DNA of 64,000 nucleotides. Source: the human T2T-CHM13v2.0 reference genome, Homo sapiens. Positions 2,470-3,242 of the stretch are shown one piece after another; position 1 is the stretch's first letter, and every line of letters starts with the position of its first letter. The position numbers were made by a program, and so were the translations under genes. Under the pieces are notes generated by a model that saw only the letters and a program-made list of their open reading frames with translations, was not told where the DNA came from and ran no database searches. The stretch lies in NCBI RefSeq assembly GCF_009914755.1, contig NC_060936.1, one strand, 5' to 3'.

Positions 2470-3242
2470 ATTTGGCTTTTGATGTCTCAATCCAATAATT
2501 TAGGCAATGACTGATAAATACATAGAATAATGTAACATGACACCATCCTAGGTTTCATATACAGAAAAAATACAAATATTTTCTGGAGTTCACAGAGACA
2601 ATATATCCTCACATTTACGTCAATCCTCTATACACTTATGCATGTTCTAGGTTTTCCAAACATTCCTAGAAGCTTTTCCTCTTCATAAGTATGGGAATGA
2701 GGCTCAAATACATCTGTGTTGTCTCTGTTTCCTTTTATCCAAATATTCTACCCTGCCCCATGAGACAATATCTCTTTTTTCCATTTTTAATTATACCCTA
2801 TTGCTTTATGTTGAATTTTGTCAAATTCAATGATGTTTATAATGATACCATTTATGAAAATTATGCTCAAACTCAGAGTTAAATCATTTAGAAATATTCA
2901 ACATAAAGCAATAGAGTATATTTAAAAATGGAAAAAACAGATGTTGTCTCATGGGGCAGGGTAGAATATTTGGATAAAAGGAAACAGAGACTACACAGAT
3001 GTGTTTGAGCCTCATTCCCTTACTTATGAAGAGGAAAAGCTTCTAGGAATGTTTGGAAAACCTAGAACATGCATAAGTGTATAGAGGATTGATGTAAATG
3101 TGAGGATATATTGTTTCTGTGGACTCCAGAAAATATTTGTATTTTTTCTGTATATGAAACCTAGGATGGTGTCATGTTACATTATTCTATGTATTTATCA
3201 GTCATTGCCTAAATTATTGGATTGAGACATCAAAAGCCAAAT
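2470..3242. repeat. Long inverted repeat: arms 2470-2816 and 2896-3242 (347 bp each), 79-bp spacer
   Basis: Manual alignment of the arms: no gaps and 10 mismatches; the outer 120 bp are identical. Confidence 0.97.

What the first reader, a model, noticed from the sequence alone, without database searches (positions are those of the whole stretch)
2811..2895. Apparent L1 target-site duplication lies inverted inside the palindrome loop, implying a flipped spacer
Seen: there is no direct TSD at the L1 5' junction. The 10 nt just after the poly(A) and one G (aacatcattg, 4792-4801) are the exact reverse complement of 2828-2837 (caatgatgtt) in the spacer. Next to this is an 11-nt filler (2817-2827) within a mini-hairpin ttgaattt-tgtc-aaattcaa. 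Inference: a simple fold-back gives arm-spacer-TSD-filler-arm'-L1-polyA-TSD. The window shows that arrangement with the central segment reversed, as expected if the inverted arms later recombined or the hairpin was resolved on the other strand. The predicted pre-insertion allele reads ...tttatgttgaat-atttctaaatgatttaactctgagtttgagcataattttcataaatggtatcattataaacatcattg-gttttacagg..., which places a TT/AAAA-like endonuclease site (ttataaa) at the insertion point. The loop could be a small inversion polymorphism. Caveat: a 10-bp match in AT-rich DNA can arise by chance.
Basis: partly seen in the sequence, partly recalled or inferred. Interest (0 to 1): 0.75.

Follow-up and report, generated by a model that had tools for sequence, protein, structure and literature searches.

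The report
L1 insertion with folded-back flank
A truncated L1 jumping gene on human chromosome 12 sits beside a mirror-image copy of about 350 bases of its own left flank, and the loop between the mirror halves was likely turned round while the insertion break was being repaired, a known kind of repair accident, here likely preserved for some ten million years.

Summary
4792-4801 is the exact reverse complement of 2828-2837, there is no full-length direct TSD, and the 11-nt stretch and mini-hairpin are as described. Such a match arises at 80 of 57,900 control positions. The 347-bp arms differ by 2.6% outside CpG, as this L1 does from its siblings (2.7%), so palindrome and insertion are of similar age. 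This is a germline L1 fold-back duplication, a class known from de novo insertions.

De novo L1 insertions already show flanks inverted at birth by hairpin opening (PMC11702581, Fig. S9 caption). A second same-subfamily fold-back found on chr1 has not flipped.

Old-repeat continuity leans weakly towards the flip (nothing).

Odds: born flipped 0.55, never flipped 0.25, flipped later 0.15, other 0.05. A gibbon or macaque empty site separates flipped from never flipped; no outgroup was available.

The parts
2470..2816 (+). Left arm, the original flank
   Evidence: 347 bp, 10 mismatches against the right arm; no other copy found in the genome
2811..2830 (.). Mini-hairpin with an 8-bp stem; also a near-perfect 20-nt palindrome with one extra base
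2817..2827 (+). 11-nt stretch: filler in the flipped reading, ancestral DNA in the direct reading
   Evidence: A few edits from the far end of the spacer and a few edits from the start of the 3' flank; no significant template elsewhere (12 hits at 1 mismatch or fewer in 64 kb)
2828..2837 (-). Candidate inverted TSD copy
   Evidence: Exact reverse complement of 4792-4801
2838..2895 (.). Rest of the spacer; carries a motif of an old L1-like repeat on the + strand (family name recalled: L1M 3' UTR)
   Evidence: 15-mer 2842-2856 occurs 42 times in the genome against 7 for the control
2887..2893 (+). TTT|AGAA: cut site and 4-nt direct TSD of the rival, unflipped reading
   Evidence: AGAA 2890-2893 equals 4790-4793; TTAGAA lies this close to a random junction at 185 of 58,580 positions
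2896..3242 (-). Right arm, the inverted duplicate of the left flank
3240..3243 (+). Arm/L1 junction inside an imperfect 5-nt microhomology (one T missing)
3244..4780 (+). 5'-truncated L1, 3' part of ORF2 region and 3' UTR (L1PA3-like; label recalled)
   Evidence: 94.6-97.2% identical to the 29 sibling copies fetched; non-CpG divergence from 18 siblings 2.7%
4781..4791 (+). Poly(A) of 10 nt followed by one G
4792..4801 (+). First 10 nt of the 3' flank, the 3' TSD copy in the flipped reading

Best explanation
This is a 5'-truncated L1 joined to an inverted copy of 347 bp of its own left flank, and the loop was likely inverted at birth, when the broken left end probably folded back into a hairpin that was then likely opened or copied through on the other strand. 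Steps: (1) L1 endonuclease nicks and reverse transcription starts at the site now at 4792 (established TPRT; exact site inferred). (2) The left end, carrying the 10-11 nt TSD as a 3' overhang, is resected and folds back about 70 nt upstream, adding 11 nt whose palindromic shape suggests snap-back synthesis (inferred). (3) Fill-in closes a hairpin. (4) A nick in the top strand about 350 bp down the stem, or a replication fork running round the hairpin, moves arm-spacer-TSD-filler onto the bottom strand, which reverses the loop and duplicates the arm (inferred; the first route is the published model for de novo cases). (5) The new end joins the L1 cDNA at a shared 5-nt word (junction shown; annealing inferred). 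An equivalent route is that the cDNA 3' end itself copied the upstream bottom strand, as Nam et al. propose; the sequence cannot separate these routes. No function is implied: no gene or annotated element lies in the window.
For: Exact 10-nt inverted match at the edge of the loop, 80 of 57,900 by chance. Arms and L1 of similar age, 2.6% and 2.7% non-CpG. Microhomology at the arm/L1 junction. De novo precedent: 2 of 3 cases in the Fig. S9 caption of PMC11702581 are flank inversions explained by fold-back, hairpin and top-strand cleavage. The Nam preprint proposes cDNA continuing on the upstream Crick strand. Hairpin-capped ends replicated round the tip are the working model for yeast inverted duplications (PMC10622511 passages). 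Old-repeat continuity: anchored alignment of 10 repeat copies favours the right arm as the ancestral continuation of the spacer (8 of 400 shuffles reach the score; 341 of 400 for the 3' flank). The motif link seen in the window occurs in 27 of 420 anchor sites against 5 of 230 controls (the 27 include the window itself and one site counted twice).
Against: The G at 4791 must be a substitution or a tail base (G stands there in 2 of 24 surveyed TSDs). AT|AAAC is a weak cut site (1 of 24), whereas TT|AGAA at the other end of the spacer is common (3 of 24 by my reading) and lies there by chance at 185 of 58,580 positions. The old-repeat test was negative with a profile HMM (no segment above z 0.7), marginal without the anchor (14 of 120 random segments reach the z sum, 2 of 120 the raw sum), negative on the upstream side for both readings, and four segments were tested, so the 8 of 400 is about 0.08 after correction. 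The published birth inversions delete flank rather than duplicate it, so a nick in the stem is my extension. No outgroup sequence was seen.
Confidence: 0.55

Rival explanations
1. Never flipped. The spacer is in its ancestral orientation. L1 cut at TT|AGAA (2889/2890); the left end kept only about 4 nt of the TSD and folded back by imperfect pairing of its end with 2817-2826. The 10-nt 'inverted TSD' is one arm of a hairpin that was already in the target. A variant: the full 12-nt overhang primed on that hairpin and about 17 nt near the loop were lost later.
For: Explains the G at 4791, needs no filler and no inversion, and gives a canonical cut site. When joined this way the hairpin extends in register to 16 of 19 bp; 8 of 61 natural local hairpins extend like that. 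The spacer end aligns to the 'filler' with few edits. The one other fold-back found (L036, chr1) is of this direct type with target loss. Short natural inverted repeats seed fold-backs in yeast.
Against: Needs a 10-bp perfect hairpin at the target, 61 of 58,480 positions, that was then not used as the fold-back point, plus an 8-bp mini-hairpin by chance (81 of 64,000). The 3' flank does not continue the old repeat in the spacer (341 of 400 shuffles score as well), and the left arm's base skew is opposite to that of the repeat copies.
Confidence: 0.25
2. Flipped later. A simple fold-back formed with the TSD in direct orientation, and the 79-nt loop was inverted afterwards by recombination or template switching between the 347-bp arms; it could differ among apes or humans.
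For: Gives the same final sequence. All 59 human-chimpanzee microinversions in PMC8755829 are flanked by inverted repeats, and 52 of 2,377 in PMC3227671 by repeats of 10 bp or more (passages). Simple inverted duplications next to L1 arise de novo (Fig. S9C caption).
Against: Needs a second event. The arms are as diverged as the L1 is from its siblings, so no homogenisation is visible (the interval is wide, 1.4-5.2%), and the 120-bp perfect run is not unusual (P 0.15). L036, with 237-bp arms at 94% identity, has kept its orientation (n = 1). No catalogue entry was seen, but those look-ups were uninformative.
Confidence: 0.15
3. Unrelated events. The palindrome arose by replication template switching and the L1 landed at, or was later joined to, its edge.
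For: Small inverted duplications are common in humans without L1: 277 with a median of 284 bp in PMC12350158 (passage).
Against: The arm ends exactly at the L1 5' end inside a word shared by both parents, the ages match, and a second L1 shows the same layout.
Confidence: 0.05

Closest known systems
L1 insertions with inversion or inverted duplication of the reciprocal end (Mendez-Dorantes et al., PMC11702581, Fig. S9A-C)
   Same: Truncated L1 with poly(A); local flank inverted next to the L1 5' end; fold-back hairpin model; in A and B the overhang ends up on the other strand at birth.
   Different: A and B are described as inversions, and the coordinates of A show a small loss of flank; C is an inverted duplication made by strand displacement. 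Here inversion and a 347-bp duplication occur together (if the flipped reading holds). Theirs are de novo in p53-null cells; this one is germline and old.
Short foldback inversion 5' of the target site, 'process C' (Nam et al. 2023, PMC10191854)
   Same: Inverted duplication of upstream flank at the L1 5' end; 4 of about 1,200 somatic insertions; their preprint model has the cDNA copying the upstream Crick strand.
   Different: Their added synthesis is 52-220 bp against about 415 bp here (arm plus spacer). I could not see their figure, so the TSD orientation in their cases is unknown to me.
Templated insertions beside L1 (Zumalave et al., bioRxiv 10.1101/2024.08.27.596794)
   Same: Local genomic DNA copied into the insertion; 22 instances, templates within 15 bp of the site.
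   Different: Typically under 250 bp; orientation not given in the passage seen.
Hairpin-capped fold-back inverted duplications in yeast (PMC10622511)
   Same: Intra-strand annealing at a short repeat near a break, fill-in, and replication round the hairpin.
   Different: Chromosome-scale dicentric products with no retrotransposon; here the event is resolved locally by joining to L1 cDNA.
Microinversions between inverted repeats (PMC8755829, PMC3227671)
   Same: A short spacer flanked by inverted repeats.
   Different: Those are shown by cross-species comparison; no such comparison could be made here.

Membership tests
L1 TPRT insertion | L1 3' end with poly(A) | tested here: met
L1 TPRT insertion | Direct TSD of 7-20 nt at both junctions | tested here: not met
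   Longest direct match at the 5' junction is 6 nt; the candidates are a 10-nt inverted copy or a 4-nt direct copy inside the loop
L1 TPRT insertion | Endonuclease-type cut site | tested here: inconclusive
   AT|AAAC (weak) in the flipped reading, TT|AGAA (good) in the direct reading; compared with 24 surveyed TSDs
L1-associated fold-back (inverted duplication) of the 5' flank | Inverted copy of upstream flank ending at the L1 5' junction | tested here: met
L1-associated fold-back (inverted duplication) of the 5' flank | Duplication of the same age as the insertion | tested here: met
   2.6% against 2.7% non-CpG divergence; wide interval
L1-associated fold-back (inverted duplication) of the 5' flank | Single-copy flank in the empty allele | not testable with these tools
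   No primate genome other than the window's own is held
Birth inversion by hairpin opening (Fig. S9A/B type) | Segment next to the cut site lies inverted relative to the empty allele | tested here: inconclusive
   10-nt inverted match; old-repeat continuity weakly positive and negative
Birth inversion by hairpin opening (Fig. S9A/B type) | Self-annealing homology at the fold-back point | tested here: inconclusive
   Only 3-6 nt candidates (TTG at 2811-2813; ATCATT at 2883-2888), obscured by the 11-nt stretch
Inverted-repeat-mediated microinversion or polymorphic inversion | Both orientations present among haplotypes or species | not testable with these tools
   Catalogue look-ups gave nothing usable
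Inverted-repeat-mediated microinversion or polymorphic inversion | Signs of exchange between the arms | tested here: inconclusive
   No homogenisation seen, longest perfect run P 0.15; a single crossover need leave none
Twin-primed 5' inversion | Inverted segment is L1 sequence | tested here: not met
   The inverted segment is unique flank
L1PA3 subfamily | Diagnostic 3' UTR bases | not tested
   Label recalled; no subfamily library on hand. Divergence from siblings fits that age

The most novel reading that the evidence does not exclude
L1 insertion can build its own invertible cassette: the fold-back creates 350-bp inverted arms around the target site, and the loop has flipped since and may still flip among apes or people. 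The human genome would then hold hundreds of such L1-made palindromes (one more turned up in 65 sibling junctions), in both loop orientations, as a dated record of how the non-priming end of an L1 break is resolved.
Probability: 0.12. Interest if true: 0.6.

Novelty: new variant of a known kind. Interest (0 to 1): 0.36.

Why it matters
How the second DNA end is processed and joined during L1 insertion is still open. Fold-backs at that end are described from a handful of somatic and cell-culture events. This locus and the chr1 locus show that such events also enter the germline and persist, apparently in both loop orientations. A census of them by subfamily age would test hairpin opening against later recombination using existing ape and pangenome assemblies. 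The locus itself is intergenic and no function is suggested.

Tried and rejected
Paralogue test of the ancestral join: searches of the genome with 2400-2900, 4792-5400 and 2811-2915 found only the locus itself; a weak BLAST against held sequence gave nothing usable. Template for the 11-nt stretch in the L1 (one-mismatch hit at 3743): rejected, 12 such hits occur in 64 kb. Gene conversion inferred from the 120-bp perfect run: rejected, P 0.15. Profile HMM from 10, and from 7 hand-picked, old-repeat copies: no discrimination after dinucleotide shuffling; the raw advantage of the flipped reading (9 of 10 copies downstream, 8 of 10 upstream) is partly base composition. Deepening the profile from held sequence found four further old copies, which were not added. 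Polymorphism look-ups: the supplement of PMC12350158 is cut and its index lists no inversion table; the search of PMC10150506 supplements returned nothing, without a positive control; the supplement of PMC3227671 could not be read. These are no evidence either way. An endonuclease-like GTTC|AA on the top strand at 2465-2470 could mark the stem nick, but such words are common and I give it no weight. Scans of prokaryotic or viral collections were not run: they hold no outgroup for this locus.

Full report
What is there. The window holds a palindrome with arms at 2470-2816 and 2896-3242 (10 mismatches in 347 bp) around a 79-nt spacer, directly followed by a 5'-truncated L1 at 3244-4780, ten As, one G and the 3' flank. 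The first 10 nt of that flank are the exact reverse complement of 2828-2837. There is no direct TSD at the L1 5' junction (longest match 6 nt). A 10-nt match to the spacer arises at 80 of 57,900 control positions. The arm, the spacer and the 3' flank each matched only this locus in genome searches.

The palindrome belongs to the insertion. Sibling L1 copies read AATTG where the window's L1 begins, and the reversed left arm reads the same word at 2468-2472; the window junction sits in it with one T missing. Outside CpG sites the arms differ by 9 of 345 (2.6%) and the L1 differs from 18 siblings by 2.7% on average; the 18 were picked from the copies covering the whole L1 stretch. The interval on the arm figure is 1.4-5.2%. 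The L1PA3 label and an age near 10-15 million years rest on recall; PMC7449397 places L1Pa7-L1Pa3 at 30-10 MYA (passages). Empty sites are therefore expected in gibbon and macaque (inference).

The class is known. Nam et al. report short foldback inversions 5' of the target site in 3 plus 1 somatic insertions (0.3% and 0.1%), with 52-220 bp of extra synthesis (PMC10191854, section 11 read whole; peer-review file passages; figure not visible). Their preprint says the cDNA 3' end continues on the upstream Crick strand (passage), which by my reading would lay the inverted copy right up to the target site. Mendez-Dorantes et al. describe three de novo insertions with flank inversions (PMC11702581: outline, sections 7, 10, 13, part of 22, and part 3 of supplement 1). 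In Fig. S9A and B the resected overhang folds into a hairpin and top-strand cleavage moves it to the bottom strand; S9C is an inverted duplication by strand displacement. I saw the captions and scattered figure text, not the drawings. Zumalave et al. list 22 templated insertions near the site (passages). Yeast work supports hairpin-capped ends replicated round the tip (PMC10622511 passages). So a reversed loop can be present from birth.

A small survey. I examined 107 other copies related to this L1: 29 and 78 further ones from the first 100 of 450 pattern matches; 20 listed places were not fetched and 2 were duplicates. In 65 of the 107 a break in L1 similarity with at least 150 nt of flank was in view. 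In 14 of these the flank was itself a repeat, often probably inverted L1, so the true 5' end may lie further out; 24 had a TSD of 9 nt or more. One of 65, L036 on chr1, has a fold-back; the window locus was detected as positive control. An earlier version of the test missed the window locus and was replaced. Longer fold-backs than the flank in view would be missed. In L036 the spacer end and the 3' flank start are neighbours in an old repeat (106 matches against 0 control), so its loop is unflipped. That is one case only.

A rival that needs no flip. TTT|AGAA at 2887-2893 is a good cut site, and AGAA is repeated directly at 4790-4793, which accounts for the G. Joined there, the 10-nt match becomes an old hairpin that pairs at 16 of 19 positions. 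The coincidences are of similar size on both sides: the direct reading needs a local 10-bp hairpin (61 of 58,480 positions), and the flipped reading needs TTAGAA at the far end of the spacer (185 of 58,580) and a G before the TSD (2 of 24). The flipped reading explains the mini-hairpin as snap-back synthesis; the direct reading leaves it to chance (81 of 64,000).

Test by old-repeat continuity. A 15-mer in the spacer occurs 42 times in the genome against 7 for its control, which points to an old L1-like remnant on the + strand (family recalled). I fetched 10 of the 41 other sites. Anchored pairwise alignment favoured the right arm as the downstream continuation (8 of 400 shuffles; 341 of 400 for the 3' flank), with no signal upstream for either reading (280 and 220 of 400). 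A 5-nt word lying 96 nt past the anchor in the window is linked to the anchor in 27 of 420 sites against 5 of 230 controls (the 27 include the window and one double count, and the word was chosen after seeing the window). A profile HMM gave no discrimination, and an anchor-free test was marginal (14 of 120 by z, 2 of 120 by raw score). I take this as a weak lean towards the flip.

Later flip and polymorphism. Inversions between inverted repeats do distinguish human and chimpanzee (PMC8755829 and PMC3227671, passages; Kolb 2009 and Hou 2011 seen only as reference entries). Nothing here calls for one: the arms are not homogenised and L036 has not flipped. The catalogues could not be checked properly: PMC12350158 (passages and a cut supplement with no inversion table), PMC10150506 (supplement search only, no positive control), PMC3227671 (supplement unreadable). 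Unseen supplements may list this locus. PMC5829575 (passages) added nothing specific.

Verdict. My weighing is subjective: born flipped 0.55, never flipped 0.25, flipped later 0.15, unrelated events 0.05. Shown: the anatomy, the junction word, the matching ages and the second locus. Inferred: the cut site, the hairpin and how it was opened. Searches listed no paper on this locus or on fixed germline L1 fold-backs with an inverted TSD, judged from titles and abstract starts; the library lacks most subscription journals. The finding is a germline variant of a known repair outcome, of modest interest alone and of more as the start of a census.

Noticed in passing
L036:725-1660 (T2T chr1, about 5,248,793-5,249,728, +): A second fold-back at the 5' end of a same-subfamily L1: arms 725-961 and 1163-1399 (94%, 237 bp), 201-bp spacer, no TSD. 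The spacer end and the 3' flank start are neighbours, mostly 11-12 nt apart, in an old repeat (106 genome matches against 0 control; MER20 by recall), so the loop is in ancestral orientation with a small target loss.
   Followed up: yes
window 198-1616: An older L1 fragment on the + strand, 73-77% identical to the young L1 over several blocks.
   Followed up: no
window 6941-7382: Alu-like element with a candidate TSD at 6955-6981 and 7273-7299.
   Followed up: no
window about 45,100-45,230, - strand: An old L1 3' UTR-like fragment picked up by the profile.
   Followed up: no
T2T chr12:84,549,794, about 18 kb before the window: A polymorphic truncated L1 of 956 bp listed in Table 18 of PMC12350158.
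   Followed up: no
T2T chr12:84.85-84.87 Mb: Exons matching the sodium:neurotransmitter symporter family PF00209, about 280 kb beyond the finding (SLC6A15 by recall).
   Followed up: no
L047:2080-2870: An inverted pair at 86% over 238 bp, away from the L1 5' junction; probably two opposed Alus.
   Followed up: no
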